Numbered from the stretch's first letter, positions 24,959 to 40,892 are shown. The stretch is 64,000 bases of DNA from Candidatus Omnitrophota bacterium (GCA_003141835.1 PLNR01000008.1:61564-125563); one strand, 5' to 3'. The notes: generated by a model not told the origin, from the letters alone. Numbers and translations: made by a program.

Positions 24959-24978
24959 AAGGGAAGGGCAAGGCTGAT

Positions 24979-25203
24979 ATGTGGTTTTTGCTGTTAATGC
25001 CCCTGGTTATCATGATAGCCGGCTTAGTGATATTCATTAAGCCGGCTTTTTGCATCGAATTCCAGAAGAAGTTCTACGCCAAAATTAATTGGCGCATGGA
25101 ACCCATTAATATGGAAATGGAGATCAGGAATACGAAAATCATGGGCTTGTTCCTGATTGGTGCCGCGATAGCAACGATTATCTATTTCTTAGTTAAGGGA
25201 TGA
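24979..25203 (+). CDS. small 2-TM membrane protein; duplicated as the C-terminus of 33437..34072
   Basis: 74 aa; about 80% nucleotide identity to 33860-34075. Confidence 0.5.
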   Translation: MWFLLLMPLVIMIAGLVIFIKPAFCIEFQKKFYAKINWRMEPINMEMEIRNTKIMGLFLIGAAIATIIYFLVKG

Positions 25204-28200
25204 TAATGAAAAAGGTCATCACCTACGTAGCGCTTACATTCCTTTTTATCGCAATACTGTCTTGTAGTTCCCTATTGTGTTGCCGCGCCTATTGTGCCGA
25301 TACCTGGTCATTCGCTGTCATAGGAGACACACGGGACAATGACCCAACTACTACAGGCGTGAGCCAATATCTGCCCGCGATAGCTTCTGCAATGGCCAAT
25401 CCTTCTTCTGTTATCTCCGGCGCAATTACGCCATCCGCGGCCTTCGTTAACGGCGATCTCGTAAACGGCGATAGCGCATTTTACCTCGACTACTCAACCC
25501 AATTCGCGAATTGGAAGACTGCCATGGCGCCACTTGGCAGCATACCCATATACACAGTGCGCGGCAATCACGAAAATGAAGTAACCGATTTATTGCCTAC
25601 GAGCGAAACCTTAAAGACGGCGTATTATAATGCCTTTGGGCCAACCGTTCCCCAGAACGGCCCGAATAACGGCCCAAATGATGACGAGGTGGGATTTACC
25701 TGGAACCTTTCCAGCCTTGACAGCCATATTAACCAAAAATATGTCCGCGTGATCGGGGTGGACCAATACTTTTATTATAATTCAACCGCGCAAGGCACTA
25801 GTCACTATTATCAGATAGACCAGGCGTGGCTGGATCAACAACTTATTCATTCGCCGCCCACGCGGTATACTTTCGTTATGGCTCATGAACCGTCATATTA
25901 TCTGGATAGCGGGGGCGACAATCCTGAGGGCGACTTTTATGGCACTACAAATCCGGATGGTAGTGCAAATCCGGCAGGGGTAGCTGCTCGCGGTGCATTC
26001 TGGAATTCCCTCGGCTCTAACGGCGTAAAGATGTATTTGTGTTGTCATGTGCACAATCTGCAGGTCGGCTATGCTTATGACAGCAATGGAAATAAAATTT
26101 ACCAGAACATGGCAGGTAATGGCGGCGCGCCGTTTGCATCGGCGGGCGCGACGGATCCAAACTTAACAGTCGCCTTTCAGGATTTTTCAGATTATGGATT
26201 TGCCCTTTATACGGTAACCAAAGATAACATCACTATTAACTATTACCTATACAATCCCACTTCGCTTACGTGGAGTATTTCTCCTTATTCCATTACCTTA
26301 GCGGCTGATCCCGTTAATACATGGAATACGACTTCAGGGAACTTTTCCACCGGTACCAATTGGGATATCGGCACTGCGCCGGGTGCAGGGGATACAGCGG
26401 TTTTCAACAACGGCGGCAGCGCGCCATCATCAGTTACTTTTGCGGACGGCAGCGCCACCACTAACAACAAATTGTTTGTAGCCAGCGGCGCGGTTACCTT
26501 CAACCTGGGAAACAACTCTTCATACACAGCAACTACCAGCGCAGCCATAGACGGCAGCTCGGATCCCACCTATCAGCCAAGCCTTGAGATAAAGGGAACC
26601 AATGGTTCAAGTTTTAATACGCCTTTACTGACGATGGACGGGGTTTCATCGTTTAAAGTGGATCCGGGAGCCTCTGCTACTTGCACTACAATTGATATTC
26701 AAGGCGGGACTGCCACTGTTGGAGGGGGAGGAGGTAATATAACGGTGACCAATCTTGTTGTTGACGGCGGCACCTTAGATATCCAATCGTTCGATCAGGC
26801 CGCCAACAATGTCCAGATGACCGGCGGCGCTATCACCGGTACAACTGGAATACTAACCAGCCTGAGTGCGTTCGATATGCAGGCAGGTACAGCCTCCGCC
26901 GTTCTCGCTGGTACGCATGGCCTGAATAAGACTACGGCCGGGACGGTGACGCTCTCCGGGGCCAACACATATTCAGGATTAACGACGATCTCCTCCGGCG
27001 CGTTATCCATTGCCGGCACGAATTCCTTGCCGGGTTGGAACACCAATGGCAGCTATAGTGTTGCCAATGGCGCGACTCTGGCGGTAGGGGATGGCGTGAG
27101 CGAAGCCAATGTTGGCGCCATTGGTACCCCACTCACCATACTAAACACTTCCAACTTCGCAGCCGGAGCGAACATAGGTTTAGATACCTCGGCAGGCAAC
27201 AGGAATTATGCTTCCGTTATCGGGAACACTTCGAACGGCGCGCTGGGTTTAACCAAGATAGGTACCAATACACTTACCCTTTCAGCCACTAACACCTACA
27301 CCGGCGCGACCACGCTGACGGCCGGCACGCTGAGCGCCGGCGCGACCGGAAACCTCGGCGCGGCGGCTTCCAACCTCGTCTTCAACGGCGGTACGCTGCA
27401 GATCACCGGTACGACTTTGACCAATATCTCGGGAATCGGACACACCGTCATAACCAATCCGGGTGAAACCGTCGGGCTGGATATCAACAATGCGGCCAAC
27501 ACATTCACATTCGATCAAGTCCTAAACCAGACGACCGGAGGCCTGACTAAATTGGGCGCGGGCACCTTGGTACTCAATAAAGCCAACACCTACACAGGAG
27601 CCACGACAGTCAGCGCAGGAACGTTACAAGCCGGAGTAGCCGCCCAGGCCTTTGGTAATAACTCGGTCGTGACTTTGAACAATACAGACGGAGGCGGCCT
27701 TAACCTTAATAACTTTAATAATACTATAGGTCCACTCAATGGTGTCGCAACCAGCACCGTCGTCCTCGGTTCAGGGACCCTTATGATCAGCGTCAACGCC
27801 GACACCGACAGAAGCGGTAACTATGTCGGTGTGATTTCAGGAACAGGCGGGCTGACTGTGGCAGGCACATACCCCGGCACACAAGTTTTAACGGGCGCCA
27901 ATTTGTATTCAGGCGTAACCACTATATCCGGCACAAGCACTCTCCAGATCGGTAACGCCGGGACAACAGGCACTCTAGGAACAGGTGCTGTAACAAACAA
28001 TGCTGGGTTGAAGTATAACCGGACTGATGTCGTACCGGCCATAACTAATGTTATCTCAGGAACAGGTACATTTGAACAAGCTGGGACCGGTACCGTAACT
28101 TTAAGAGGCAACAACACCTACACAGGAGCCACGATAGTCAGCGCCGGAACGCTGCAAGCGGATAATGATACTTACTTTGACTCTGTCAAAGGTGTTGGTT

Positions 28201-30011
28201 ATGGGGCTTTTGGTAATCTTTCGGCCGTGACGGTTGCAGTCGGAGCAACGCTGGATGGAAATGGTTATTACCATAATATAGGTTCACTTTCGGGGAGTGG
28301 TAAAGTGACTGAGAGCGATCCGGGCTTCCAATCATCTTTTGTTGTGGGCTGGGACAATTCTTCTACGACCTTTTCTGGAATTATAGAGGATGGCAATGGC
28401 CTAATCGACCTTACTAAAGATGGAAGCGGGACTTTTACTCTTACCGGTGCCAACACATATACCGGAGCTACCGCGATAAACGCAGGAACAGTGGTTGCCG
28501 GTAATGCCAATGCCCTCGGCAACGGATCGGCTGTTACTGTCGGGGCCGGCGGTACTCTCGACGTTGGCACCACCAATGTCACCGTTAATAATACCTATAC
28601 TCAGAACGGGACTCTAAAGGTGACCGTTGCGAGCCCGTCATCTTCCGGTAAGATAACATCCAACGCCAATGCATTTGTAGCCGCAACTAGCAGCGTCAAT
28701 GTCACTGTTGCAAACAGCACCTTCATCCCGAACAACACCACATACACGGTAGTAGACAGTTCAGGCGGAAACAACGTAAACGTCCCCGGCACGATCACAT
28801 CAAGCGATTCGCGTTTGACGTTCTCAGGCATAAGCTCAAACGGAGACCTCATTTTAACAGCTAGCCGCGCCGCAAACGGCTTCTCAAGCTTAGGCACGAA
28901 TTCTAACTCCTCTGCCGTTGGCGCTGTTTTAGATAACATCTCAGCCCCGTCCGGTGATATGTTAACCGTCTTAAATACGCTCGAAGGACTGAGCAATTCG
29001 CAGACAGAGTCAGCCCTTGCCACCTTAGTTCCTGTAGTCGACAGCGGAGTGACCAATGTCAGTAATACCGCCATCAACCAGTTCATGGGGACATCTACCG
29101 ACAGGCTAGGTGGCCTCTTCGCCCAGGCGCATAGCGAAGAGACCGGCGTCTCAACCGGAAGCAAGGGGAGCAGCGGTTTTGAGGCATGGGGCAGGGGATT
29201 CGGTGAATACGCCCACCAGGATCCCAGAGGGCTAAGCAACGGCTATCACGCCACTATCTGGGGCACGGCAATAGGAGCCGATATCCCAATCTTTAACGAC
29301 AAGGCCCGCATAGGCGCCGATGGCGGTTACGCCAGCAGCGGCGTAAATTCAAAAGATAACAGCGGTAAGACCTATATCGACAGCTACCAGTCAACCTTCT
29401 ATGGCGGCTTCACGGATCCCGAGAAACCCTACTACATAAACGGCGCCTTCTCCTTCGCCTATAACACATACAAGGGAAGAAGGAACATAGCCGTAGGCAC
29501 TATCACCAGGACCGCCAACGCAAACTATAAGGGCCAGCAATACTCCGTCTTATTCGACGGCGGATATATCTTTAAGACCAAACAAGTCAATATAACCCCC
29601 ATAGCCTCTATCCAGTACCTGCGCCTAAACCTCCATAGCTACACCGAGACGGGCGCAGATGCTCTCGATTTAAGTGTCAAAGGCCAGGGCTACAACCTAT
29701 TGGAATCCGGCCTGGGCGCAAAGTTCGACCGTCCATTTGAGGTCTCCTACGGCACTATAGCACCCGAGGTCCACGTCCGCTGGTTTTACGATATAATAAC
29801 CGATAAACAATCCACCACGTCTACCTTCGCAGGCGGCGGCGGTTCATTCGCCACCAACGGATTCAATCCCGCGCGCAACGCCTTAAATGTCGGGGGAAAA
29901 ATAGCCCTTCTCACAAAAGGCAACTGGAGCTTTGACGCCAATTACGACTTCGAATACAAACAGGACTTCACTTCCCATACGGGATGGGCGGATATCGCAT
30001 ATAAGTTTTAG
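25200..30011 (+). CDS. giant autotransporter: N-terminal calcineurin-like metallophosphoesterase domain, PATR repeats, C-terminal beta-barrel
   Basis: VRGNHEN and GDxVNGD metallophosphatase motifs; PATR units; C-terminal 520 aa ~87% identical to the preceding autotransporter. Confidence 0.75.
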   Translation: MIMKKVITYVALTFLFIAILSCSSLLCCRAYCADTWSFAVIGDTRDNDPTTTGVSQYLPAIASAMANPSSVISGAITPSAAFVNGDLVNGDSAFYLDYSTQFANWKTAMAPLGSIPIYTVRGNHENEVTDLLPTSETLKTAYYNAFGPTVPQNGPNNGPNDDEVGFTWNLSSLDSHINQKYVRVIGVDQYFYYNSTAQGTSHYYQIDQAWLDQQLIHSPPTRYTFVMAHEPSYYLDSGGDNPEGDFYGTTNPDGSANPAGVAARGAFWNSLGSNGVKMYLCCHVHNLQVGYAYDSNGNKIYQNMAGNGGAPFASAGATDPNLTVAFQDFSDYGFALYTVTKDNITINYYLYNPTSLTWSISPYSITLAADPVNTWNTTSGNFSTGTNWDIGTAPGAGDTAVFNNGGSAPSSVTFADGSATTNNKLFVASGAVTFNLGNNSSYTATTSAAIDGSSDPTYQPSLEIKGTNGSSFNTPLLTMDGVSSFKVDPGASATCTTIDIQGGTATVGGGGGNITVTNLVVDGGTLDIQSFDQAANNVQMTGGAITGTTGILTSLSAFDMQAGTASAVLAGTHGLNKTTAGTVTLSGANTYSGLTTISSGALSIAGTNSLPGWNTNGSYSVANGATLAVGDGVSEANVGAIGTPLTILNTSNFAAGANIGLDTSAGNRNYASVIGNTSNGALGLTKIGTNTLTLSATNTYTGATTLTAGTLSAGATGNLGAAASNLVFNGGTLQITGTTLTNISGIGHTVITNPGETVGLDINNAANTFTFDQVLNQTTGGLTKLGAGTLVLNKANTYTGATTVSAGTLQAGVAAQAFGNNSVVTLNNTDGGGLNLNNFNNTIGPLNGVATSTVVLGSGTLMISVNADTDRSGNYVGVISGTGGLTVAGTYPGTQVLTGANLYSGVTTISGTSTLQIGNAGTTGTLGTGAVTNNAGLKYNRTDVVPAITNVISGTGTFEQAGTGTVTLRGNNTYTGATIVSAGTLQADNDTYFDSVKGVGYGAFGNLSAVTVAVGATLDGNGYYHNIGSLSGSGKVTESDPGFQSSFVVGWDNSSTTFSGIIEDGNGLIDLTKDGSGTFTLTGANTYTGATAINAGTVVAGNANALGNGSAVTVGAGGTLDVGTTNVTVNNTYTQNGTLKVTVASPSSSGKITSNANAFVAATSSVNVTVANSTFIPNNTTYTVVDSSGGNNVNVPGTITSSDSRLTFSGISSNGDLILTASRAANGFSSLGTNSNSSAVGAVLDNISAPSGDMLTVLNTLEGLSNSQTESALATLVPVVDSGVTNVSNTAINQFMGTSTDRLGGLFAQAHSEETGVSTGSKGSSGFEAWGRGFGEYAHQDPRGLSNGYHATIWGTAIGADIPIFNDKARIGADGGYASSGVNSKDNSGKTYIDSYQSTFYGGFTDPEKPYYINGAFSFAYNTYKGRRNIAVGTITRTANANYKGQQYSVLFDGGYIFKTKQVNITPIASIQYLRLNLHSYTETGADALDLSVKGQGYNLLESGLGAKFDRPFEVSYGTIAPEVHVRWFYDIITDKQSTTSTFAGGGGSFATNGFNPARNALNVGGKIALLTKGNWSFDANYDFEYKQDFTSHTGWADIAYKF
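28440..30011 (+). repeat. ~1.57 kb repeat, copy 2 of the autotransporter C-terminal region (copy 1 at 23389..24958)
   Basis: Long colinear near-identical DNA, about 87-90% identity. Confidence 0.85.
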
Positions 30012-30034: not shown

Positions 30035-30364
30035 ATGAGGATCTGGGATATAGCGCCCGGAAGGTTATGCCGCAACCATCTCTTGGGCGAGCACAGGGAA
30101 CTCCACGCCATCTGGTCTGTCCTGACGCGCAACAAGAAGGGGTATTCCCGCCATCCCGAGACCTTAAGGTGGAAGGGCAGGTTAAAGGCGCTGTATTCAA
30201 GGCACACGAAGCTCGTCAACGAACTTAAACGGCGTGGCTACCTCCACCACAGCCCTCTTGATTCCCGGCTGGCGAAAGGGAAGGGGAGGCAGACGCGGTT
30301 CGTCAATTCAGTCGGCGAACAGATCAAGATTTTGAGCAGGAAAAACTGCGGCTGTAAGATTTAA
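30035..30364 (+). CDS. pyrimidine-dimer DNA glycosylase (T4 endonuclease V-like) family protein, putative
   Basis: N-terminal MRIWDIAPGRLCRNHLLGEHRELHAIW resembles T4 DenV MTRINLTLV...HLMAEYRELPRV. Confidence 0.5.
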   Translation: MRIWDIAPGRLCRNHLLGEHRELHAIWSVLTRNKKGYSRHPETLRWKGRLKALYSRHTKLVNELKRRGYLHHSPLDSRLAKGKGRQTRFVNSVGEQIKILSRKNCGCKI

Positions 30365-30377
30365 TAGGTAAGGCCAT

Positions 30378-30465
30378 TAAAATAATCATAACCCTCTGCG
30401 ATTATAACTGTTGCAGGGGATTTTTATTAAGAGTAGAATTAATCCTAACGAGGCGTTCCAAAGTT
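30378..30465 (+). repeat. direct repeat A (~85 bp, includes a terminator hairpin) after the glycosylase-like gene
   Basis: taaaataatcataaccctctgcgattataactgttgcaggggatttttattaagagtagaattaatcctaacgagg; about 92% identical to repeat B. Confidence 0.8.
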
Positions 30466-30520: not shown

Positions 30521-31057
30521 ATGAAATACGTGACCGCTATGTTCGATTGGATAATGAGAAATAAGGAATGGATCTTTAGCGGTGTTGGAGTCGTGCTCAT
30601 AGGGTGGTTGGTCTTGGCGGTGCGCAGGTTTTTATTCATGCGACGAACTTCAAGTTCGTTGATTGAAGGGGCGACTCTTAGAGAAATAATCGAGAGTCCT
30701 GCGGTTGTGTCATCATCCGACATCGCCAACTTAACTTCTTCTCTTACCCCGAAGCAAATCATTGAAAATATAAAGGCTCTTCCGCTCCTCCAACAGCAGG
30801 ATGCCGGCAAACACTATATTGGTCTTGCTGTGAAATGGGATGGAGAGCTTGCCGATGCGAGGAAAATAGCTGAGAATTCGGTACAACTTTATATCTTACA
30901 CGGCTCAAGCAGTACAGGCTTTTTTTTAAAGGTTAACCCAAGCGACTATCCTGGGCTTAGTCTTCTAAAGAAAGGGGCTCATGTTGAGGTAGATGGCCTG
31001 ATTGAGGAAGCAGGAGCAATGTGGGTGACGCTTAATAACGCGCACATTCGCTTTTAG
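30521..31057 (+). CDS. hypothetical protein with N-terminal TM anchor
   Basis: 178 aa, low GC, one TM helix, then a soluble domain. Confidence 0.5.
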   Translation: MKYVTAMFDWIMRNKEWIFSGVGVVLIGWLVLAVRRFLFMRRTSSSLIEGATLREIIESPAVVSSSDIANLTSSLTPKQIIENIKALPLLQQQDAGKHYIGLAVKWDGELADARKIAENSVQLYILHGSSSTGFFLKVNPSDYPGLSLLKKGAHVEVDGLIEEAGAMWVTLNNAHIRF

Positions 31058-31087
31058 TATTTACTCAGCACATTATTTATGTAGGGC

Positions 31088-31150
31088 AATAAGGGACGTG
31101 TCAAAAAGGGACAGGTCGCATAAACAGAGTGTCCCAAAGTGACACGTCTC
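31088..31150 (+). promoter_or_regulatory. nested-palindrome leader element, copy 1
   Basis: GGACGTGTCA-aaaa-GGGACAG-N15-TGTCCC-aaag-TGACACGTC, preceded by TAATAAGG; ends about 35 nt before the RBS of 31187. Confidence 0.6.
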
Positions 31151-31186
31151 CGAAAAACCCATACCTTGGCATAAAGGAGGTGCTTA

Positions 31187-31591
31187 ATGAATATTCCGGA
31201 AAAAGAACAGTATAAATACCTTACTCACCATCTTGAATATCTTAATGATAAGATTCTAGGATCGTTTGAATTATTCATTAAACTCGCTACGGCAATTATC
31301 GGTGGTGTATTTCTTCTTCATTGGAAACTTGCAGAGAACCATAATAATGGAGATTCACTTGTTTTGATGTCTGATATGCTGTTTTGCATTGTCGGCGTAA
31401 GTATCATAGCCCTTATATGGATTAATCTTTGTGCTTGGCGATCATATCGAAAAACTCTCTCTAAAGAATATCCAGCTATTAAGCTTTCGAATCCTTTCTT
31501 ATGGTGGATAGGTGAAGCCATAATGAGTTTACTTATAATTATAACGTGTATATTATTTTGTCTCTTAAATCCTCTGAATAGTTTTTGTTAG
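31187..31591 (+). CDS. hypothetical multi-TM membrane protein
   Basis: 134 aa with 3 predicted TM helices. Confidence 0.5.
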   Translation: MNIPEKEQYKYLTHHLEYLNDKILGSFELFIKLATAIIGGVFLLHWKLAENHNNGDSLVLMSDMLFCIVGVSIIALIWINLCAWRSYRKTLSKEYPAIKLSNPFLWWIGEAIMSLLIIITCILFCLLNPLNSFC

Positions 31592-31595
31592 AGTA

Positions 31596-31658
31596 ATAAG
31601 GGGACGCGTCAAAAAGGGACAGGTTGCATAAGCAGAGTGTCCCAAAGTGACACGTCCC
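31596..31658 (+). promoter_or_regulatory. nested-palindrome leader element, copy 2
   Basis: One substitution relative to copy 1; precedes the RBS of 31694. Confidence 0.6.
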
Positions 31659-31693
31659 CAAACGCATAAAATCGCGCAAAAAGGGAGGTTGGA

Positions 31694-32287
31694 ATGAAAA
31701 GGGCGATAGTAATTTTTTTGGTAGCGTCATGTTTTCTTGAAGGTTGTGCATCTTATCATGCGGGGCTTTTGCCATCAAAAGATGTAATGAATTATGATAA
31801 TAAGCAAGTTCAAAATAACGTTTATGTCGTAGCAAAATTTTTGAATGCAAGAGAAACAAAACAAGTCTTTCAATTTGATCTAGAAAATAAGGGTATCCAG
31901 CCCACTTTTATTGTTATGGATAACAGAAGTCCTAAAACCTACGATTTCAAAAAATCAGACATAAATAAACAGATAATGTCTTCGCAAGAGGTAGCTGATA
32001 AATGCAAATTTAGTACTGTCGGACGAGCAACAACTTATGGAGTAGTGGGATTATTCATTTGGCCATTCTTAATTCCAGCAGTAGTCGATGGCGTAGGATC
32101 ATCGGAGGCGAACAGAAAAATTGAAGACGATTATGCTTATAAAGAATTGCAGGATGGAAGATTAATGCCAAATGCTCTCATGAACGGAGTTGTTTTCGTG
32201 TCTAAAATGAAAGAAGGAGAGGATTTTACCATAAGATTAAAAGATGTTGATACAAATGAAATTCTAAGATTTAGTTTTCAGAAGTGA
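31694..32287 (+). CDS. hypothetical lipoprotein
   Basis: Signal peptide with an FLEGC lipobox. Confidence 0.5.
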   Translation: MKRAIVIFLVASCFLEGCASYHAGLLPSKDVMNYDNKQVQNNVYVVAKFLNARETKQVFQFDLENKGIQPTFIVMDNRSPKTYDFKKSDINKQIMSSQEVADKCKFSTVGRATTYGVVGLFIWPFLIPAVVDGVGSSEANRKIEDDYAYKELQDGRLMPNALMNGVVFVSKMKEGEDFTIRLKDVDTNEILRFSFQK

Positions 32288-32335
32288 GTCACATTAGGTC
32301 GCATAAGCAGAGCGTCCTAAAGTGACACGTCCTCA
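32287..32335 (+). promoter_or_regulatory. nested-palindrome leader element, copy 3 (5' arm truncated)
   Basis: ggtcgcataagcagagcgtcctaaagtgacacgtcc matches the 3' half of copies 1 and 2. Confidence 0.5.
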
Positions 32336-32377
32336 AAATTAACCACGAAGAAACGCTATAATTAAAAGGTGTGAGAT

Positions 32378-33316
32378 ATGACTTTAATAATGTCAGCTAT
32401 TACCTCCTCGGGTATCGTTCTAACTGCCGATAGTAGACAGTCCTATAAAAATGGAGCAGGGGCAATTCGCATTGGTTCTGATAATGCATTGAAGCTTTTT
32501 AAGCTTTCCGATTATATTGGAGTTTCTATTTCAGGTAAAGCCTTTCTTAATGGGGAAAACCAATCGGTCAAAGACGTCGGATATTTTATTAATAAATTTA
32601 AACAAACAGAGGATCTAAAAGAACTAACAATCCGAGATGTTGCTAATAAACTAAATAAATATCTCGGTGACCTTTTTGTTGAGAAAGAAAGAGTATCTTT
32701 GAAAAAGCTTATTGAGGAACAAGTTACAAAGCTTGGTGGTAAAGATTTAGTTTTTCTTCCAATGGACGATTCTTTGGTTCCATATTCATATAAAGATAAG
32801 GACGGCAAGGTGATTTCAAATACAGCAATGATTGAGACAATTAATATGATTGTGGCAGGCATTGATAAGGACAAGGTAGGAAGAGCTTACTCAGTTTGGG
32901 TTCCTAAAGGGATAACGCTGGAAAAAGATACTCAGCTGTGCGGTGCTTTGTGGTGCGGTCAGAATGATGTTATCATTCGAATTGTCAAAGGATTTACACT
33001 GGAGATAGAAAAACTTAATTTTATAAAAGAGGCTCTAGCAAAAGATAACGCCTCAACTATCAGCCAGCTAAATAAAATGGAGTACATTATTAATTGGGGA
33101 ACAATGACCATCCAAGATGCGATAGATTTTTGCGTATTAATGACCCGTACTACCGAAAGCATACAGAGGTTTTCTGATGGTACCTTTTTACAACCTGGTG
33201 GTATTCCCGGCGTTGGTGGGGAGATTGATATAGCTGTTATTACACCTGAAAAAGGATTCCGTTGGCTTAAAAAGAAAAAATTGGAATCTGAGGGGGAAGA
33301 GCTTTCTTTAGAGTAA
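32378..33316 (+). CDS. proteasome-beta/HslV-like Ntn-hydrolase family protein with a C-terminal extension
   Basis: Thr directly after the initiator Met. GIVLTAD with Asp at position 17 of the Met-processed protein. KLFKLSDYIGVSISGKA parallels proteasome-beta KKIFKIDDHIGVAFAG. Confidence 0.5.
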   Translation: MTLIMSAITSSGIVLTADSRQSYKNGAGAIRIGSDNALKLFKLSDYIGVSISGKAFLNGENQSVKDVGYFINKFKQTEDLKELTIRDVANKLNKYLGDLFVEKERVSLKKLIEEQVTKLGGKDLVFLPMDDSLVPYSYKDKDGKVISNTAMIETINMIVAGIDKDKVGRAYSVWVPKGITLEKDTQLCGALWCGQNDVIIRIVKGFTLEIEKLNFIKEALAKDNASTISQLNKMEYIINWGTMTIQDAIDFCVLMTRTTESIQRFSDGTFLQPGGIPGVGGEIDIAVITPEKGFRWLKKKKLESEGEELSLE

Positions 33317-33363
33317 GAATGGAATATCAGCAAAATAGAATATAATAAGGAACGTGGGCGATA

Positions 33364-33430
33364 GGGGACGTGTCAAAAGGGCAAGGTCCCTTCGCAAAGG
33401 GAGACAGGTTATAAAAATGACACATGACAG
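33364..33430 (+). promoter_or_regulatory. nested-palindrome leader element, copy 4 (diverged)
   Basis: GGGGACGTGTCAAAAGGG ... TGACACATGACA, preceded by TATAATAAGG. Confidence 0.5.
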
Positions 33431-33436
33431 ATCTAA

Positions 33437-34072
33437 ATGAGTAAACCTGAAGAGGAATCAAGCGAAGTAAAAAATAGCAGCCGGAATATTCTTATACTTG
33501 ACGTATTGGGCATGGCTGTTATATTTATTCTTTTTATGATTGTTCGTGACAAATTTGGGCAAATTTTTAAAGAAATGGACGTGCCTGCAACGTTATCTTA
33601 TAGAATATTAATCGAACCCCACCCTGTCGTGCTTATTGTCGAATTCATTATAATCATAGCCATTCTCATTCTTAAAGAGAGAGTAATAAGGAATAAAAGC
33701 ATAACGTATTATATTAATAGCATAATTTTAGTAGTATTAGTTTTATCTATTCTCTTTTTCGGATATTCTGCTTTTTTCTTGCCCTTGATTCCTCTAATTA
33801 CGGAACTACAATCAAGGTCCAGTTTTTTCGATAAGTTCGGGTATCTTTTTAGTTATAATATAGTTGTTCCGTTAGTCATCTTAATAGCCGGCTTAATAAT
33901 ATTTATTAAGCCGGTTTCTTGTATCGAGCTCCAAAAAAAGTTTTACGAAAAGATCAACTGGCGCATGGAGCCGATCAATATGGAAATGGAGATCAGAAAT
34001 ACAAAAATCATGGGCTTATTTTTAGTCGGCGCATCCCTAGCAACAATTGTCTATTTTTTGATTAAAGGATAA
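33437..34072 (+). CDS. hypothetical multi-TM membrane protein; C-terminal 70 aa duplicate the 24979..25203 product
   Basis: 211 aa; C-terminal ...IFIKPVSCIELQKKFYEKINWRMEPINMEMEIRNTKIMGLF... Confidence 0.55.
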   Translation: MSKPEEESSEVKNSSRNILILDVLGMAVIFILFMIVRDKFGQIFKEMDVPATLSYRILIEPHPVVLIVEFIIIIAILILKERVIRNKSITYYINSIILVVLVLSILFFGYSAFFLPLIPLITELQSRSSFFDKFGYLFSYNIVVPLVILIAGLIIFIKPVSCIELQKKFYEKINWRMEPINMEMEIRNTKIMGLFLVGASLATIVYFLIKG

Positions 34073-34074
34073 TA

Positions 34075-34395
34075 ATGGAAAAAATTATTGGACAAGCGGG
34101 TAATCTAAACGATTTGGTAGCTTATCAGGAAGGCTCAATCGTAAGCAAAGAGATAATAAAAAAGGACATAGGCACGGTAACCCTTTTTGCCTTTGACAAG
34201 GGGCAGGGGTTGAGCGAACACACCGCGCCGTTTGATGCCCTGGTTTATATCTTTGACGGCGAAGCGGAAATAATGATTTCCGGCCTGCCACATCATTTAA
34301 AGGCAGGCGAGATCATCATAATGCCTGCGAATAAGCCGCACGCCTTAAAAGCGATAGAACGTTTCAAGATGATGCTGGTTATGATTAGGTCTTAA
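34075..34395 (+). CDS. cupin domain protein
   Basis: 106 aa small-barrel cupin pattern (G...H.H....E...V..G). Confidence 0.55.
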   Translation: MEKIIGQAGNLNDLVAYQEGSIVSKEIIKKDIGTVTLFAFDKGQGLSEHTAPFDALVYIFDGEAEIMISGLPHHLKAGEIIIMPANKPHALKAIERFKMMLVMIRS

Positions 34396-34407
34396 AGAGA
34401 AAAGTCT

Positions 34408-34495
34408 TAAAAATAATCATAACCCTCTGCAATTATAACTGTTGCAGAGGGTTTTTGTTAAGAGTAGAATAAATCCCAACGAGGTCTTACAAAGT
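34408..34495 (+). repeat. direct repeat B (~85 bp) with a perfect 10-bp-stem terminator hairpin
   Basis: CCCTCTGCAA-ttataact-gTTGCAGAGGG plus TTTTT, then ttaagagtagaataaatcccaacgagg. Confidence 0.8.
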
Positions 34496-34525
34496 GGCGC
34501 ATATTCAAAACCATAAGCGTGCTTA

Positions 34526-35248
34526 ATGTTGAGAGTGCCCCGATTTTTAAATAGACTTGCAATTGGTTTTAATAGTGATAGAATCAAAGAAAAAGGAGCA
34601 CAGATGGGCGTCAAGAAGAATTTATGGTTGTTTGTATTTAATGTTGTCTGCCTAGTTATTGCTATTGTTTTGTGTAGTGGGTTTATGTATTATTTTTGCG
34701 TAGCGAACCCATCTAACATTGTTTATGCAAAAGAAGATAGTTCCGCGGAGAAGGTTGAATTAAATAAACAGGAAATTAGTAAATTACAGAAGGATGATTT
34801 AAGTAATCAGGACTCTAAACAATCGGCAGTTGTTGAGGAGAAAACCGATAAGACTACGGTTTCCCTCGTTTTAAATAAAGAGAATGAAGCAATTATAAAA
34901 AATATGGAACGACGTAATAGTTTTCTCGAATTTTATATAGGGCAGATTATAAGCTTTTATCAACAAGTTATTACTTATTTATTAGGAGTAATTGGTGTTT
35001 TATTAGTCATCAGCTTTATGTATATACGTTTTACGTCTAAGCAACAAACTGAGGAGATGGCAAATGAAGCATTGAACTCAAAATCCTTCCAGATAATTCT
35101 ACAAAATCTGGTTAAGAAAGAATATGCTGAAGCGTTAAAATCAGGTGATTTTGTGGAAATGTCTAGTAAAATACCTGATTTAGCTGATAGGGTAACTGAG
35201 CTTGAGAAGATAATGAACGCAAAAGATGATGATGAAATTCAGGAATAG
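34526..35248 (+). CDS. hypothetical membrane protein with coiled-coil segments
   Basis: Two TM helices and K/E-rich regions. Confidence 0.45.
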   Translation: MLRVPRFLNRLAIGFNSDRIKEKGAQMGVKKNLWLFVFNVVCLVIAIVLCSGFMYYFCVANPSNIVYAKEDSSAEKVELNKQEISKLQKDDLSNQDSKQSAVVEEKTDKTTVSLVLNKENEAIIKNMERRNSFLEFYIGQIISFYQQVITYLLGVIGVLLVISFMYIRFTSKQQTEEMANEALNSKSFQIILQNLVKKEYAEALKSGDFVEMSSKIPDLADRVTELEKIMNAKDDDEIQE

Positions 35249-35257
35249 GGGTGAAAA

Positions 35258-35812
35258 ATGGGAATAATTAGAGAGAAATGTTTTGCTCCTGACTGTTCTA
35301 TCGCATCTAGCAATATTGATTTATATGATACTCCGGAGAAATTATTTGCTTTTGCAAGTTCTCAAGGCATTCCTACTGTGCCTTTAGACGTAGAGAAATT
35401 AGCCAATAAAATGGGTATCAAAATAGAATACGCTGATTTTCCAAATGATTTATCGGGGGAACTTATCAAGGATCCGGCAACTAATCATTGGGTTATCTAT
35501 GTGAATAAAAATCATCATATTAATAGGCAAAGATATACTATCGCACATGAAATAGCTCATTTTTGTCAGCACAGGCACTTGAAATATAGATTTGAAGACG
35601 AAATATTTTTTAGGGGTGGTGAATCATACGACAAGGAAGAAACGGAAGCAAATAATTTCGCTAGTTCTATACTTATGCCAGAACAAGAATTTAAAACTAA
35701 AGTTCGTTCGGGAATTAGGAAAATAGAAGAATTAGCTGGGATATTTAAGGTCTCAACCTTAGCCCTAAGAATAAGGGCAAAAAATCTCGGCATGTCAGGA
35801 CACGGGTTATGA
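35258..35812 (+). CDS. ImmA/IrrE family metallo-endopeptidase
   Basis: HEXXH at IAHEIAHF with the downstream Glu typical of COG2856; ATGA overlap with the next gene. Confidence 0.75.
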   Translation: MGIIREKCFAPDCSIASSNIDLYDTPEKLFAFASSQGIPTVPLDVEKLANKMGIKIEYADFPNDLSGELIKDPATNHWVIYVNKNHHINRQRYTIAHEIAHFCQHRHLKYRFEDEIFFRGGESYDKEETEANNFASSILMPEQEFKTKVRSGIRKIEELAGIFKVSTLALRIRAKNLGMSGHGL

Positions 35813-36894
35813 AGAATATATCATATGCTCCGATAATAAAAACTAGTGATGCGGAAATCAGGGGGATTGAAAACCTTGATGATGACGATAAGGATGGAAT
35901 TACTCCAATTTTTGAATTGACAAAATCAAGAAAATCAAAATATCTTCCTCAGGGTGATATATATAGAAGGCTAGAAAAGCTTAAAGATGTATTTGGTGCT
36001 AGGCGTTTCATATTAGATTTAACAAGTGATCGTAATTCTATAAATGAACAAATTGAAGAATTGCAAGATAATCATGGCGGATATAAAAATTGGATTGATT
36101 TCCTAATTTTGCAAAAGAATGATTTTCCTGAATTAATACCAACAATACAGATTACTGATAAGGGAGTTAAGACTGAAGAAGAATTGTATAATAGAGTTAA
36201 GGTACAGGTTGAAGCGTTAAACAGGAATTTTGCCGAAGTTGCTTACAGGTTTCCTTTGGAATATGAAGATTTTACGACCGACCTCAAGCATATAATTGAT
36301 AATATCTCTAAAGATAAAATTATTTGTATCGTTGATGCTGGATTCATTACGCAAGGGAAATCAGGAATCTATATAACAAAAGCAAGGAGTGTTATTGCAG
36401 AAGTAAAAAAATTTGGGATTAAAAATATAATATTATCAGCTACTTCCTTTCCAAGGAATCCGACTCAATACGGCGGTGAGGAGACAGGAGAGTGCCAATT
36501 AGAAGAGTGTTTATTTTATAATGGCGCAAGAGAAGAAAAATCTAATATCAGTTTTATCTATGGAGATTATGCCACGATTAATCCGATAAGAAGCGATCAA
36601 GCAGGTGGCAATGGATGGGTTCCGAGAATAGATATGCCTACAGAAGATGAACTTTTTTATTATAGATCTAGAAAACGCAAGCAAGAATTGACATATGCTA
36701 ACGCTTATACAAGAGTCGCACACTCTGTGGCTAGCGACCAAAGATATAAAAATATAAAGAAAAAAATCAGGGATTGCTGGGGAATTGAGCAGATTGAATT
36801 AGCCGCAAAAGGCACCCCAGAAGGATTATCACCATCCTTCTGGATCTCAGTTAGAATGAACATCCACATAACAATAAAAAATAAAATGCATTAA
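35809..36894 (+). CDS. Beta family protein (T4 beta-protein-like; sce7725-like)
   Basis: N-terminal YAPIIKTSDAEIRGIENL...ITPIFELTKSR and RRFILDL fit my recollection of the Beta_protein N-terminal pattern; 361 aa. Confidence 0.55.
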   Translation: MKNISYAPIIKTSDAEIRGIENLDDDDKDGITPIFELTKSRKSKYLPQGDIYRRLEKLKDVFGARRFILDLTSDRNSINEQIEELQDNHGGYKNWIDFLILQKNDFPELIPTIQITDKGVKTEEELYNRVKVQVEALNRNFAEVAYRFPLEYEDFTTDLKHIIDNISKDKIICIVDAGFITQGKSGIYITKARSVIAEVKKFGIKNIILSATSFPRNPTQYGGEETGECQLEECLFYNGAREEKSNISFIYGDYATINPIRSDQAGGNGWVPRIDMPTEDELFYYRSRKRKQELTYANAYTRVAHSVASDQRYKNIKKKIRDCWGIEQIELAAKGTPEGLSPSFWISVRMNIHITIKNKMH

Positions 36895-37523
36895 ACATAT
36901 AACTTATCAATTATTCCGCATAAACCTCGTAAATCATCCCATACGATTTTTCCTTCGGTATCCCTCAAGAGAAGCCTAAAAAGTTTATAGTAACGTTTCT
37001 TAAGATATGAATAAGCAGCTGTGCGGATTTTACTTGTGGTCAGCTGGTGGCTAAGCTTTTCCCGTATTTCATCTGTAGATAGCTTTCGGATATTTCTTGA
37101 GGTGCATAGGCTGAGCAGTTCAATCTTAGGCAAGAATATCAAAAGAGAACGCTTATCCAATTTTTTATTTAATCTCGCTATTTTTATAACCTTAAATTTA
37201 TCGTTATTAAATAGAATTAGTCCGGTGTTTTGAGTAATAATATTTTTAATCTTGTTAACATTCTTTATAGTGGTTATTACAGATACTTTGTCAAATGTAT
37301 TATGATAATCGTTTAGCTGCATTTTAAGTTTTCTTGGATCGTCAGAATCACTTTTTATTTCAAGGGTATGTGTTTTGTTTGAAATAATTAATAAGTCGGC
37401 TTTTCGCCTATTAGCAGAAAACAAAACTTCAGTAGCAATAGCATCCTTCGACTTATTAAAATTAAGATTGCCCCTTAATAACCATCTTATTGCTTTTGTT
37501 TTTATTAGTTCTGCTTTATCCAT
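36891..37523 (-). CDS. sce7726-like putative PD-(D/E)xK nuclease-fold protein
   Basis: RKADLLIIS...LEIKSDSD D-(x)n-E-x-K pattern; convergent with the Beta gene, stops overlapping by 4 bp. Confidence 0.5.
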   Translation of the reverse strand: MDKAELIKTKAIRWLLRGNLNFNKSKDAIATEVLFSANRRKADLLIISNKTHTLEIKSDSDDPRKLKMQLNDYHNTFDKVSVITTIKNVNKIKNIITQNTGLILFNNDKFKVIKIARLNKKLDKRSLLIFLPKIELLSLCTSRNIRKLSTDEIREKLSHQLTTSKIRTAAYSYLKKRYYKLFRLLLRDTEGKIVWDDLRGLCGIIDKLYV

Positions 37524-38134: not shown

Positions 38135-38163
38135 TTGACACCCACACAAATGTGTGGTATACT
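38135..38163 (+). promoter_or_regulatory. lexA promoter TTGACA-17-TATACT with a CCACACA-aa-TGTGTGG palindrome in the spacer (candidate SOS box)
   Basis: Consensus -35, perfect 7-bp inverted repeat at 38142-38157, -10 ending 7 nt before the ATG at 38171. Confidence 0.55.
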
Positions 38164-38170
38164 CCTGCCT

Positions 38171-38719
38171 ATGAAACCCCAAGTAGAATTAACCGCCAAG
38201 CAAGAGAAGGTCCTGAAATTTATCCGCGAAAGAGTGGGGGAGAACCTGCCTCCGACCATAAGGGAGATAGCAGGGGAGATGGGCTTTGCTTCCACAGGAA
38301 CGGTTAGGGATTATCTTGCGGCGCTTCAAAGAAAGGGTTACCTCAAACGCGAAAATAACAAATCCCGGGGCATAGCGTTAATAGGAAGTATTGCGGCCGG
38401 GGAGCCGAAATTGGCCTATGAAGATATCGAGGGCTATGTCGAGATCGCCCGGGAGAATACCTTTGCCTTGAAGGTCAAAGGCGAAAGCATGATAGACGCC
38501 GGCATTATGGACGGCGACATAGCGGTCATCAGGAAACAGAAGACGGCCGATAACGGCGATATCATCGCCGCGTTACTGGACAATAACGAAGTCACCTTAA
38601 AAAGACTCAAGACCGGCGGCGGCAAGCCATTCCTGGAAGCAGCGAACAAGAAATATCCCCCGATACATAAAGAATTCAGCATCATAGGCAAACTTGTCAA
38701 TATAGTAAGAAAATATTAA
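38171..38719 (+). CDS. lexA: LexA repressor
   Basis: N-terminal wHTH (MKPQVELTAKQEKVLKFIRE), S24 peptidase GESM Ser and downstream Lys; start moved to a typical LexA Met. Confidence 0.85.
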   Translation: MKPQVELTAKQEKVLKFIRERVGENLPPTIREIAGEMGFASTGTVRDYLAALQRKGYLKRENNKSRGIALIGSIAAGEPKLAYEDIEGYVEIARENTFALKVKGESMIDAGIMDGDIAVIRKQKTADNGDIIAALLDNNEVTLKRLKTGGGKPFLEAANKKYPPIHKEFSIIGKLVNIVRKY

Positions 38720-38722
38720 GCG

Positions 38723-39055
38723 ATGGCGATATCAGGCTTCAACCCAAAGGCGCGCTGGGACCGACACCCTCTTGGCAGAGGGCAAGCTATCCCCGAGACC
38801 GAAGACAGTGTCGACCCCGGGATACTGGACGAAAAGATAGAAGTCCTGGCATATTTCAAGGGCTCAGCGATATTTCCCCGCGCGTTCATCCGCAATAACA
38901 AGGTCCACAGGATAAAAAAGATCACCTATAACTGGCAGGAACGCCGCGGCCGGGAGGTCCTGAACCTGTTTTCGGTGGACACCGGGACCTGCCTCTACCA
39001 GATATCATTTAATAACACGACCTACCGCTGGCAGATCGACAAGATAATAGCATGA
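38723..39055 (+). CDS. hypothetical 110-aa protein between lexA and dinB (possible polymerase accessory factor)
   Basis: Operon position only; no recognisable motif. Confidence 0.45.
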   Translation: MAISGFNPKARWDRHPLGRGQAIPETEDSVDPGILDEKIEVLAYFKGSAIFPRAFIRNNKVHRIKKITYNWQERRGREVLNLFSVDTGTCLYQISFNNTTYRWQIDKIIA

Positions 39056-40227
39056 TCCTGCACATAGACATGGACGCTTTTTTCGCGTCCGTTGAACAGG
39101 CCATCAACCCGCGGCTTAAAGGCAAGCCCCTGATAGTGGGCACGCGCGAAAGGAAGCTCCACACGGTCGTTTGCGCGGCCAGTTATGAAGCCAAGGCCTT
39201 AGGGATAGGCTCAGGGATGTCTTCTGAGGAGGCCTTTAAAATATGCCCGGACCTCAATTTTGTCCCGGCAGAACAAAGCAAGTATATATGGACCTCGGGC
39301 CGGATATTGGAGCTCATCAAGGGATACGGGTTCGAGACCGTATATGTTTCGATAGATGAGTTCCAAATTGATGTAGGGGATCAGGGACAGTCCCCAAATG
39401 GGGGCTGTCCCTCTTACGCCGTGGCTTTGGCCGAAGATATCCGCAGCAAAATACACAAAAACTTCAACATCACAGCTTCCGTAGGCATAGCGAAAAATTG
39501 CCTCCTTGCCAAACTCGCCTCAAAGTTAAACAAGCCAAACGGTGTAGCTGTTTTGACCGAAGCCAATTTAGCCGAAATTTTGGCCAAAACACCGGTCGAA
39601 AAATTATGCGGGGTGGGGGAAAAGACAGCCGAAATCTTCCATGATTTGGGCATCAAAACCTGCCTGGACCTGTACGCCAAAACGCCCAAATTCCTGGAGC
39701 GGAATTTAGGCAAGAACGGGCTCAATCTTTACGCGTCTTTGCATTCCGAAGAGTCGCTTGAGCCGGCTGATGATGACCCGGATCCAAAATCCGTAGGCCA
39801 TTCATATACCTTGCCGAGATCCACAGAAAATCCCGGGTTTATCCGCGCCTGGATACGCCTTTTGGCCGATATGGTCGGTGAGCGCCTAAGGCAGCAAGGC
39901 CTGGCAGCAGCGACAACACACCTATGGCTGAACGGGCCAAAAATAGGCAATTTTGGGGCCCAAAAGACATTCCCGGAAGCCACTAATGACGGCTGTGAGA
40001 TATTCCGGAGAGTACTTGTTAATATGTCCAAATTAGGGCCGCAAACGCCCAAAACAAGAGCTTTAGGCGTAACCTGCAGTAGTTTCACACATACCAGGTA
40101 TTTGCCTTTATTTGACCAACAGAAGAGCCGGGAATCGCTCCTGGAGGCGGTAGACAGGATCAATGACCGCTACGGAGACGGCTCGATTTATCCCGCCGCG
40201 ATCACTTTAACCAGGGAAATGCCTTAA
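39052..40227 (+). CDS. dinB: Y-family DNA polymerase IV
   Basis: MILHIDMDAFFASVEQ with catalytic Asp pair; SIDE catalytic Glu. Confidence 0.8.
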   Translation: MILHIDMDAFFASVEQAINPRLKGKPLIVGTRERKLHTVVCAASYEAKALGIGSGMSSEEAFKICPDLNFVPAEQSKYIWTSGRILELIKGYGFETVYVSIDEFQIDVGDQGQSPNGGCPSYAVALAEDIRSKIHKNFNITASVGIAKNCLLAKLASKLNKPNGVAVLTEANLAEILAKTPVEKLCGVGEKTAEIFHDLGIKTCLDLYAKTPKFLERNLGKNGLNLYASLHSEESLEPADDDPDPKSVGHSYTLPRSTENPGFIRAWIRLLADMVGERLRQQGLAAATTHLWLNGPKIGNFGAQKTFPEATNDGCEIFRRVLVNMSKLGPQTPKTRALGVTCSSFTHTRYLPLFDQQKSRESLLEAVDRINDRYGDGSIYPAAITLTREMP

Positions 40228-40814: not shown

Positions 40815-40833
40815 AGGACGGATTTTTCATGGC

Positions 40834-40870
40834 TTGACATAATGTATCAAATATGATACATTTGTTATAG
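40834..40870 (+). promoter_or_regulatory. promoter region with a 9-bp inverted-repeat operator (AATGTATCA-aata-TGATACATT) upstream of the XRE regulator
   Basis: TTGACA at 40834 and the palindrome at 40842-40863. Confidence 0.45.
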
Positions 40871-40892
40871 GCATGAAAGGAGGTGCATTAAC

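What the first reader, a model, noticed from the sequence alone, without database searches (positions are those of the whole stretch)
32378..33316. Proteasome-beta/HslV-like Ntn-hydrolase encoded inside the island
The predicted protein starts Met-Thr. After Met removal the Thr-1, GIVLTAD (Asp at position 17) and KLFKLSDYIGVSISG segments align with the catalytic Thr1, Asp17 and Lys33 neighbourhoods of proteasome beta subunits, HslV and Anbu. A 110-aa C-terminal extension is not found in those families. A Thr-protease homolog sitting among membrane proteins with shared regulatory elements is unusual. It could be the effector or processing enzyme of the island.
Basis: inference. Interest (0 to 1): 0.7.

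Follow-up and report, generated by a model that had tools for sequence, protein, structure and literature searches.

The report
Solo proteasome-like threonine hydrolase gene
This gene encodes a real but uncharacterised bacterial relative of the proteasome's catalytic subunit with an intact active site; it moves between phyla as a single gene and lands in mobile and anti-phage "defence" islands, so it is probably not a partner of the membrane proteins next to it.

The parts
32378..33316 (+). Gene for a 312-aa proteasome-family (PMI-type) N-terminal-nucleophile hydrolase
   Evidence: ORF confirmed. Fold. Homologs. dN/dS 0.07-0.13.
32365..32371 (+). Shine-Dalgarno-like AAAGGTG, 6 nt upstream of the ATG
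   Evidence: Read directly from the intergenic sequence. Function is inferred.
32381..32383 (+). Codon for Thr2, which becomes Thr1 (the nucleophile) after Met excision
   Evidence: Ser or Thr in 280 of 281 aligned homologs, the other being a gap. Aligns with Thr1 of mature beta. That Met is removed before Thr rests on the known specificity of methionine aminopeptidase; it was not tested here.
32429..32431 (+). Codon for Asp18 (Asp17 equivalent)
   Evidence: 281/281 conserved. Correct spacing from Thr.
32492..32494 (+). Codon for Lys39 (Lys33 equivalent)
   Evidence: 280/281 conserved. Aligned to Lys33.
32534..32536 (+). Codon for Gly53 (Gly47 equivalent, oxyanion hole)
   Evidence: 279/281 conserved. 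Aligned.
32675..32833 (+). Insertion 1 (about aa 100-152): extended helix H2 plus a three-stranded beta-sheet at the 'pore-loop' site after H1/H2
   Evidence: DSSP of the models gives H85-118, E122-126, E133-139 and E145-151 at pLDDT above 90. The segment is absent from the 260-285-aa relatives.
32990..33106 (+). Insertion 2 (about aa 205-243): three short helices between H3 and H4
   Evidence: DSSP gives H208-212, H214-222 and H224-234. Fuchs et al. describe an insertion at this site for PMI-2 to PMI-6.
33212..33289 (+). Canonical C-terminal strands (aa 279-304, GVGGEIDIAVITPEKGFRWL)
   Evidence: Aligns to residues 169-194 of mature Thermoplasma beta. This is why there is no C-terminal extension.
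31093..31154 (.). REP-like two-stem palindromic element, copy 1 (context, not part of the gene)
   Evidence: DNA fold z = -5.0.
31601..31662 (.). REP-like element, copy 2
   Evidence: DNA fold z = -6.8.
32276..32337 (.). REP-like element, degenerate copy 3, immediately upstream of the gene
33356..33430 (.). REP-like element, degenerate copy 4, immediately downstream of the gene
30361..30464 (+). 104-nt repeat, copy A, containing an intrinsic terminator (30393-30419)
34392..34495 (+). 104-nt repeat, copy B (84% identical), containing an intrinsic terminator (34421-34453). Together with copy A it brackets the six-gene block 30521-34395.

Best explanation
The ORF encodes a cytoplasmic member of the proteasome-like (MEROPS T1-type, N-terminal-nucleophile) hydrolase family, of the 'multiple insertions' (PMI-3/PMI-4-like) architecture. 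It has no propeptide. Removal of the initiator Met should expose Thr1, which together with Asp17, Lys33 and Gly47 equivalents forms a complete proteasome-type catalytic centre. About 180 residues form the canonical alpha-beta-beta-alpha core. About 130 residues of internal insertions sit at the sites that, in the proteasome, line the pore (after H2) and make ring-to-ring contacts (between H3 and H4). They therefore probably gate substrate access or change the oligomeric assembly. The gene is a free-standing, horizontally mobile unit. In this Omnitrophota genome it is cargo of a low-GC variable island. In other genomes it sits in defence islands or integrative and conjugative elements, always with different neighbours and no dedicated unfoldase. 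Shown here: the gene is real and under selection, the fold, catalytic-residue conservation, where the insertions lie, mobility, and the lack of conserved partners. Inferred: peptide-bond hydrolysis as the chemistry, activation by assembly rather than by propeptide cleavage, and a role in host-parasite conflict (most likely a single-gene anti-phage or anti-MGE effector). I put about 0.95 on the identity of the protein and about 0.3-0.35 on the defence role.
Against: No biochemical data exist for this protein or any PMI-type homolog. This protein is below the Pfam and NCBIfam cutoffs. Membership of PMI-3 or PMI-4 could not be checked by sequence, because the published representatives (OGZ26396.1, HDY66466.1) could not be retrieved. 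The defence role rests on guilt by association in about 15 loci without a formal background comparison. PADLOC has no model that hits the protein, and many Patescibacteria loci show ordinary-looking neighbours. Ser129 and Ser169 of canonical beta subunits appear to be replaced (V279 aligns with Ser169), so the fine structure of the active site may differ. Oligomeric state is unknown.
Confidence: 0.8

Rival explanations
1. One reading: the protease is a dedicated processing or effector enzyme of a co-regulated operon. It would act on, or work with, the membrane and lipoproteins encoded beside it (30521-35248), the shared intergenic elements being their common regulatory sites.
For: Six co-directional genes (30521-34395) are bracketed by two copies of a 104-nt repeat, each with a strong terminator, so co-transcription is plausible. 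Related hairpin elements separate the genes.
Against: None of these neighbours has a detectable homolog next to any of about 45 homolog loci, including those at 77-89% identity. The protein has no signal peptide, and its function needs a free cytoplasmic N-terminal Thr. The hairpin element also occurs between housekeeping genes in another contig, so it is a dispersed REP-like element and not an island-specific operator.
Confidence: 0.06
2. It is a housekeeping, self-compartmentalising quality-control protease analogous to HslV, BPH or Anbu. It would degrade unfolded or damaged proteins without a dedicated ATPase, and be especially important in Patescibacteria, where the family is most common.
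For: The full catalytic set and the closest structural neighbours (Anbu, beta subunits) support this. The family is abundant in Patescibacteria MAGs, often among ordinary genes. Fuchs et al. suggest ATP-independent roles for such homologs.
Against: The distribution is patchy and incongruent with phylogeny, with 50-70% identity across phyla and domains. The gene shows foreign GC content and lies in islands next to integrases or defence genes in the Thr clade. Insertions at the pore-loop and H3/H4 sites are predicted to hinder canonical stacked rings.
Confidence: 0.2
3. It is carried by mobile elements for their own benefit, as an anti-defence or establishment factor. For example, a protease that removes host immunity or repressor proteins, expressed alongside orphan methyltransferases.
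For: N6/N4 or Dam-type DNA methyltransferases, including ParB-methylase and LexA-methylase fusions, lie within 3 genes in about 8 of 29 non-redundant loci. Integrases, excisionases, Rep and TrwB lie nearby in other loci. LexA-like repressor genes lie within 2 kb in four Patescibacteria loci.
Against: The family was not found in 50,697 phage genomes, 72,556 plasmids or IMG/VR. Only one phage protein is a good structural match, and it lacks the insertions. The closest relatives sit among chromosomal defence genes, not in recognisable leading regions.
Confidence: 0.12
4. The chemistry is not degradation but sequence-specific peptide ligation or transpeptidation, as in connectase, or hydrolysis of a non-protein amide as in other Ntn hydrolases.
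Confidence: 0.1
5. It is a catalytically dead scaffold or a decaying pseudogene.
For: The protein scores below curated family thresholds.
Against: The catalytic residues are invariant in 281 homologs. dN/dS is about 0.1. The ORF is full length, with start and stop conserved with homologs.
Confidence: 0.02

Closest known systems
PMI-3 / PMI-4 ('Proteasome homolog with Multiple Insertions') of Fuchs, Alva and Lupas 2021 (PMC8665760)
   Same: It has a proteasome-like core with Thr/Ser1-Asp17-Lys33-Gly47 and no propeptide. It has a long insertion after H1/H2 (the pore-loop site) plus an insertion between H3 and H4. It has no co-occurring AAA+ partner. Its distribution is patchy and shaped by horizontal transfer across bacteria, with occasional archaea.
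   Different: Sequence-level membership could not be tested because the representatives could not be retrieved. The paper reports no informative genomic context, whereas this clade shows a defence-island and mobile-element context. PMI-4 is reported in phages, but this clade was not found in phage collections.
20S proteasome beta subunit (Pfam PF00227, MEROPS T1)
   Different: It has no propeptide, about 130 residues of insertions, and no alpha-subunit or ATPase partner. It scores below the Pfam cutoff (15.3 against 22.4 bits). Ser169 appears to be replaced by Val.
Anbu (ancestral beta subunit)
   Different: Anbu is about 240 aa with a long C-terminal H5 helix that forms a coiled coil. From my own knowledge of Valas and Bourne 2008 and Fuchs 2017, not verified here, it sits in a conserved operon with ATP-grasp, alpha-E and transglutaminase-like genes. 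Neither the long H5 nor any such neighbour is seen here.
HslV (ClpQ)
   Same: It starts Met-Thr and is a bacterial member of the proteasome family.
Connectase (DUF2121)
   Same: It is a proteasome-fold enzyme that probably does not form the classical barrel, and whose insertions modulate access to the active site.

Membership tests
Proteasome-like Ntn hydrolases (T1 peptidase superfamily) | Four-layer alpha-beta-beta-alpha Ntn fold with proteasome topology (S1-S10, H1-H4) | tested here: met
Proteasome-like Ntn hydrolases (T1 peptidase superfamily) | Nucleophile Thr/Ser as the first residue of the mature chain | tested here: met
   The protein starts Met-Thr. Ser or Thr occupies this column in 280 of 281 homologs, the other being a gap, and 260 of 280 start directly with MS or MT. 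Met removal itself was not tested.
Proteasome-like Ntn hydrolases (T1 peptidase superfamily) | Asp17, Lys33 and Gly47 equivalents | tested here: met
   D18 281/281, K39 280/281, G53 279/281. Register confirmed by HMMER alignment to beta subunits.
Proteasome-like Ntn hydrolases (T1 peptidase superfamily) | Score above the curated Pfam PF00227 / NCBIfam thresholds | tested here: not met
   15.3 bits against a cutoff of 22.4. TIGR03634: 20.3 against 224. However, 87 of 118 family members hit PF00227 at E<=0.01, so this reflects divergence, not exclusion.
Proteasome-like Ntn hydrolases (T1 peptidase superfamily) | Assembly into hexameric or heptameric rings that form a proteolytic chamber | not testable with these tools
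   Only monomer prediction was available. Fuchs et al. argue that insertions at these sites may prevent canonical rings.
PMI-3 / PMI-4 (Fuchs et al. 2021) | Long insertion after H1/H2 and an insertion between H3 and H4; no S3/S4 insertion; no propeptide | tested here: met
   DSSP of both models: H2 85-118 plus strands 122-151; helices 208-234 between H3 (197-203) and H4 (245-265); a tight S3/S4 hairpin at 40-53. Compared with the description.
PMI-3 / PMI-4 (Fuchs et al. 2021) | Sequence clustering with the published representatives (OGZ26396.1, HDY66466.1) | not testable with these tools
   The accessions could not be retrieved. Cluster look-ups returned other accessions: MCC7160513.1, HAX98499.1, RLB03480.1, MCD6491241.1.
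HslV | Adjacent hslU AAA+ partner and a compact subunit of about 175 aa | tested here: not met
Anbu | Long C-terminal H5 coiled-coil helix and a conserved ATP-grasp / alpha-E / transglutaminase operon | tested here: not met
   The model ends about 14 residues after S10, with only two short strands. None of those families is among the recurrent neighbours. The operon definition comes from my own knowledge of the Anbu literature.
Connectase | Two-helix insertion between S3 and S4; absence of H1/H2 | tested here: not met
   S3 (40-44) and S4 (47-53) form a tight hairpin, and H1 (67-77) and H2 (85-118) are present. Definition.
Integron gene cassette (considered for the island) | attC sites with R''/R' cores (RYYYAAC / GTTRRRY), and an IntI integrase or a cassette-only array | tested here: not met
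   The elements have a two-stem architecture but a GTGTCA/TGACAC core. No integrase is in the island. The same element lies between housekeeping genes in L083.
Known anti-phage defence systems (PADLOC-DB v2) | Match to a model of a known or candidate defence protein | tested here: not met
   No PADLOC hit for the protein at E<=1. Only its neighbours at 35258-36894 hit (capP, beta, PD-Lambda-2_B/C).

The most novel reading that the evidence does not exclude
This PMI-type proteasome homolog is a self-contained, single-gene immune (or counter-immune) effector. It would be a threonine protease, kept inactive as a monomer or by its insertion 'lids', that assembles or opens on sensing infection and degrades phage or host proteins. 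That would make it the first proteasome-family enzyme assigned to prokaryotic defence islands, and the first function for any of the 22 orphan proteasome homologs.
Probability: 0.3. Interest if true: 0.75.

Novelty: new member of a known kind. Interest (0 to 1): 0.45.

Why it matters
Proteasome-family enzymes are central to regulated proteolysis. Twenty-two bacterial and archaeal subfamilies were catalogued in 2021 with no function and, according to the authors, no informative genomic context. This gene belongs to one of the insertion-bearing subfamilies. Here it has a complete active site and a confident model. It also has a reproducible context signal: it travels as a solo gene, moves between phyla, and in its closest relatives sits between restriction-modification, OLD, STAND and caspase-helicase genes or beside integrases. 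That turns an orphan family into a testable hypothesis, namely a protease-based defence or conflict factor. It also offers a compact 312-aa, propeptide-free candidate for structural and biochemical work on how insertions re-shape proteasome assembly. If no such role exists, it is simply one more divergent proteasome homolog carried as island cargo.

Tried and rejected
1. The C-terminal-extension idea was rejected by the models and by alignment to Thermoplasma beta.
2. hhalign of the family against E. coli HslV found no significant match; a single-sequence template makes this uninformative.
3. phmmer of the single protein against the PDB gave only chance hits such as NapA and SiaP.
4. I tested whether the island is an integron-like cassette array, because of the hairpins after each ORF. 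I rejected it: the cores are non-canonical, there is no integrase, and the same element sits between housekeeping genes elsewhere.
5. Rfam has no family for the repeats.
6. I looked for LexA/SOS control of the gene. None of the LexA-box consensus patterns I tested (listed from my own knowledge) occurs upstream of the gene or of lexA in the window.
7. Phage or plasmid carriage: no match in INPHARED, PLSDB or IMG/VR.
8. I tried to tie the family to the published PMI representative accessions through cluster look-ups, without success.
9. An exact look-up of the window's own protein in the contig index found no record.
11. A conserved-partner search, by clustering neighbours across 38 loci and by sensitive BLAST among the closest relatives, found nothing shared except methyltransferases and LexA-like genes in a minority of loci.

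Full report
**1. The observation**

The ORF at 32378-33316 on the + strand exists. It encodes 312 residues and begins at the first possible start codon after the upstream stop. A Shine-Dalgarno-like AAAGGTG lies 6 nt upstream. The protein starts Met-Thr. Asp18 lies 16 residues after Thr2, exactly the Thr1-to-Asp17 spacing of proteasome beta subunits.

Pfam's Proteasome model matches residues 9-55 at E=0.016. That is 15.3 bits, below the 22.4-bit cutoff. NCBIfam's archaeal beta-subunit model matches residues 8-95 at E=3e-4, far below its cutoff. On its own this would be only suggestive.

**2. It is a real, selected gene in a large family**

A word-indexed search of 5.8 billion proteins found 619 relatives. 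The best 120 are full length at 51-100% identity, and JGI names several of them '20S proteasome alpha/beta subunit'.

- An exhaustive profile search of 1.84 billion cluster representatives found 1185 at E<=1e-3 and 472 at E<=1e-10.
- A sister clade of about 325-aa proteins has more than 1179 members, most of them reaching Pfam Proteasome.
- Pairwise dN/dS between this gene and its closest relatives is 0.07-0.13.

**3. Fold**

AlphaFold2 with 23 sequences gave pLDDT 75.5 and pTM 0.75. With 118 sequences from both clades it gave pLDDT 90.1 and pTM 0.89. All five models scored 85-90 and the topology was the same.

| Search | Result |
|---|---|
| Foldseek vs PDB | 414 chains at E<=1e-3; all listed top hits are 20S proteasome subunits |

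**4. Catalytic residues**

HMMER aligns the family profile to a mature plant beta subunit, with profile Thr2 on Thr1, D18 on Asp17, K39 on Lys33 and G53 on Gly47. I aligned 281 full-length homologs:

| Position | Residue in homologs |
|---|---|
| 2 | Ser 143, Thr 137 |
| D18 | 281/281 |
| K39 | 280/281 |
| G53 | 279/281 |
| R20 | 280/281 |

The clade containing this gene uses Thr and the sister clade uses Ser. Both are accepted nucleophiles in this family.

There is no propeptide. Exposure of Thr1 needs only Met excision, which is expected when Thr is the second residue. That expectation comes from the established specificity of methionine aminopeptidase and was not tested here.

**5. Where the extra length is**

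Profile positions 279-304 (vGGeIDvAVITpekGf) align with residues 169-194 of mature Thermoplasma beta (SGGMIDVAVITRKDGY), the canonical final strands.

Reading DSSP of the confident model against the S1-S10/H1-H4 scheme gives:

- S1 3-8 and S2 13-18
- an extra hairpin at 21-33
- S3 40-44 and S4 47-53
- H1 67-77
- a very long H2 at 85-118
- an inserted three-stranded sheet at 122-151
- the second core sheet at 155-194
- H3 197-203
- three inserted helices at 208-234
- H4 245-265
- a loop at 266-282
- S9 283-289 and S10 293-298
- about 14 further residues

The 260-285-aa relatives found by the exhaustive search lack most of the H2/sheet insertion but keep the QRFSDG...PG.xPGVGG.IDIAVIT motif.

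**6. Comparison with what is known**

Fuchs, Alva and Lupas (2021) catalogued 22 new proteasome homologs. [quoted passage not shown] They also report that propeptides are absent outside beta subunits and HslV, and that no AAA+ partner co-occurs.

The present protein fits the PMI-3/PMI-4 description feature by feature. I could not retrieve the representative accessions to confirm this by sequence.

The same paper states that no genomic context suggestive of function was found. I found no later paper that characterises a PMI protein or links proteasome homologs to defence islands.

**7. Genomic context in the window**

The host is a Candidatus Omnitrophota bacterium. Its pyruvate phosphate dikinase is 95-98% identical to those of Omnitrophica MAGs. 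The gene lies in a low-GC island at about 30.0-38 kb, with GC 0.34-0.41 against about 0.51 for the rest of the window.

| Coordinates | Gene product |
|---|---|
| 30035-30364 | pyrimidine-dimer glycosylase |
| 30521-31057, 31187-31591, 33437-34072, 34526-35248 | small predicted membrane proteins, no family assignment (membrane call from reading the sequences) |
| 31694-32287 | predicted lipoprotein (from its N-terminal sequence) |
| 32378-33316 | this gene |
| 34075-34395 | cupin |
| 35258-37523 | M78 peptidase (capP-like, E=1e-34), 'Beta protein' (PD-Lambda-2_C-like) and an sce7726-family protein: a defence-like module |
| 38135-40227 | lexA and dinB, in normal-GC DNA |

Two copies of a 104-nt repeat, each with a strong intrinsic terminator, bracket the six genes from 30521 to 34395. 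A 60-nt two-stem palindrome (GGGGACGTGTCA-AAAA-GGGACA...TGTCCC-AAAG-TGACACGTCCCC) separates several of those genes. Its DNA folding z-scores are -5 to -7, and it occurs nowhere else in the window.

I tested whether these elements are integron attC sites. The cores are not RYYYAAC/GTTRRRY and there is no integrase. The same element turns up as single copies in other metagenomic contigs, and in L083 it lies between two genes that, from their sequences, look like a 16S rRNA methyltransferase and an AmmeMemoRadiSam-family protein. They behave as REP-like extragenic palindromes of this lineage.

**8. Context across homologs**

I examined about 45 loci.

- After clustering all flanking ORFs, nothing is conserved next to the gene except DNA methyltransferases, in about 8 of 29 non-redundant loci, and LexA-like genes in a few.
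- Even the relatives at 77-89% identity share no neighbour with the window or with one another.

What those close relatives do share is the type of neighbourhood:

| Locus | Identity to window protein | Neighbours |
|---|---|---|
| L042 | 89% | type I R-M S subunit; caspase-DEAD-helicase fusion |
| L043 | 83% | helicase-nuclease with N6_Mtase/Eco57I; OLD-family nuclease |
| L044 | 77% | Mrr-nSTAND3 NTPase; DUF3800 |

More distant members lie 2-5 kb from integrase plus excisionase (L039, L041), or beside a serine recombinase, Rep_O and a TrwB coupling protein (L040).

In high-GC hosts the gene's GC is 6-23 points below that of the distant flanks. Identity of 50-70% between Omnitrophota, Patescibacteria, Verrucomicrobia, Bacteroidota and Acidobacteriota, and 65% between a Nealsonbacteria protein and a Korarchaeota MAG protein in the sister clade, also points to frequent horizontal transfer.

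The family was not detected in phage genomes, plasmids or IMG/VR. Only one phage protein is a good structural match, a 219-aa protein without the insertions.

**9. Mechanism**

Shown here: a complete proteasome-type catalytic centre at the N-terminus of a protein without a propeptide; insertions at the pore-loop and ring-contact sites; no dedicated unfoldase; solo mobility.

Inferred:

- The enzyme cleaves peptide bonds.
- Because Thr1 is exposed as soon as Met is removed, activity must be restrained some other way, by assembly state or by the insertions covering the active site. Isolated proteasome subunits are inactive until assembled.
- Its recurrent placement among defence genes and on integrative elements suggests a role in host-parasite conflict. 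A single-gene defence effector is the most likely form, and an element-borne counter-defence or establishment factor is an alternative.

A housekeeping ATP-independent protease role, especially in Patescibacteria, cannot be excluded. Nor can connectase-like ligase chemistry, although connectase's structural signature is absent.

**10. Verdict**

The gene is a new member of a known, bioinformatically described but experimentally orphan kind. The new element is the context signal. It is suggestive, not proven, and easy to test.

Noticed in passing
window 31093-31154, 31601-31662, 32276-32337, 33356-33430; also L081, L083, L085, L091, L095: A family of about 60-nt two-stem palindromes (GGGGACGTGTCA-AAAA-GGGACA...loop...TGTCCC-AAAG-TGACACGTCCCC) with conserved stems and variable loops. 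It occurs four times within 2.3 kb of the island and nowhere else in the 64-kb window. Single copies occur in other metagenomic contigs, including between housekeeping genes. The architecture resembles attC but the cores are non-canonical, so it is probably a lineage-specific REP-like element. It has no Rfam family.
   Followed up: partly
window 30361-30464 and 34392-34495: Two copies (84% identical) of a 104-nt sequence, each containing a strong intrinsic terminator followed by a conserved tail (TAGAATWAATCCYAACGAGG...CAAAGT). They bracket a 4-kb six-gene block that includes the proteasome homolog. They could be duplicated terminators or the ends of a mobile module.
   Followed up: partly
window 35258-37523: Three genes: an M78/ImmA-IrrE peptidase (PADLOC capP E=1e-34), a 'Beta protein' PF14350 (PADLOC beta E=3e-49; PD-Lambda-2_C E=7e-21), and a convergent sce7726-family protein (NCBIfam E=5e-30). 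This looks like a PD-Lambda-2-like or sce7725/7726 defence module, with no adjacent HTH partner gene.
   Followed up: partly
L008, L015, L017, L023 (Patescibacteria loci), within 2 kb of the homolog: LexA-like genes lie next to the proteasome homolog. Three are single ORFs fusing the LexA DNA-binding domain, an S24 peptidase and an N6/N4 DNA methyltransferase (491-632 aa), which seems an unusual architecture. LexA within 2 kb in 4 of about 18 Patescibacteria loci is far more than a single-copy gene should give by chance (rough estimate, not a formal test). The window's own lexA-dinB lies about 5 kb downstream of the gene, but I found no SOS box upstream of it.
   Followed up: partly
L013, L014, L022 (and L035 nearby): In the Ser-nucleophile sister clade, an ECF-type sigma factor (208-214 aa) and a conserved 80-aa protein lie directly upstream. 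The 80-aa ORF overlaps the start of the proteasome homolog, which suggests a three-gene operon and possibly a sigma/anti-sigma-like regulatory link.
   Followed up: partly
L009 7478-9376 (Verrucomicrobiae MAG): The AT-rich homolog gene sits, with gaps of 28 and 20 nt, between a truncated N6_N4 methyltransferase (only profile positions 1-82 of 221) and a 139-aa ORF whose sequence shows an Mrr-like PD-(D/E)XK motif (my reading, not scanned). It looks as if the gene inserted into a methylase-nuclease gene.
   Followed up: no
window 40296-41546: A second lower-GC patch (0.43) holds an ORF6N/Rha-type anti-repressor, an XRE-family HTH protein and an ArsR-family regulator. It is probably a remnant of another mobile element, next to lexA-dinB.
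   Followed up: no
window 22124-30011, and L001 13323-15455: Large PATR-repeat autotransporters (944 and 1603 aa) lie immediately upstream of the island. A related autotransporter lies 4.4 kb downstream of the 86%-identical homolog in L001, so the variable islands sit near similar surface-protein genes in related genomes.
   Followed up: no
P0164 (398 aa): One family member has a much larger H3/H4 insertion made of short repeats (FQNLN..VQKTEL.. motifs). This shows that the H3/H4 site tolerates large expansions.
   Followed up: no
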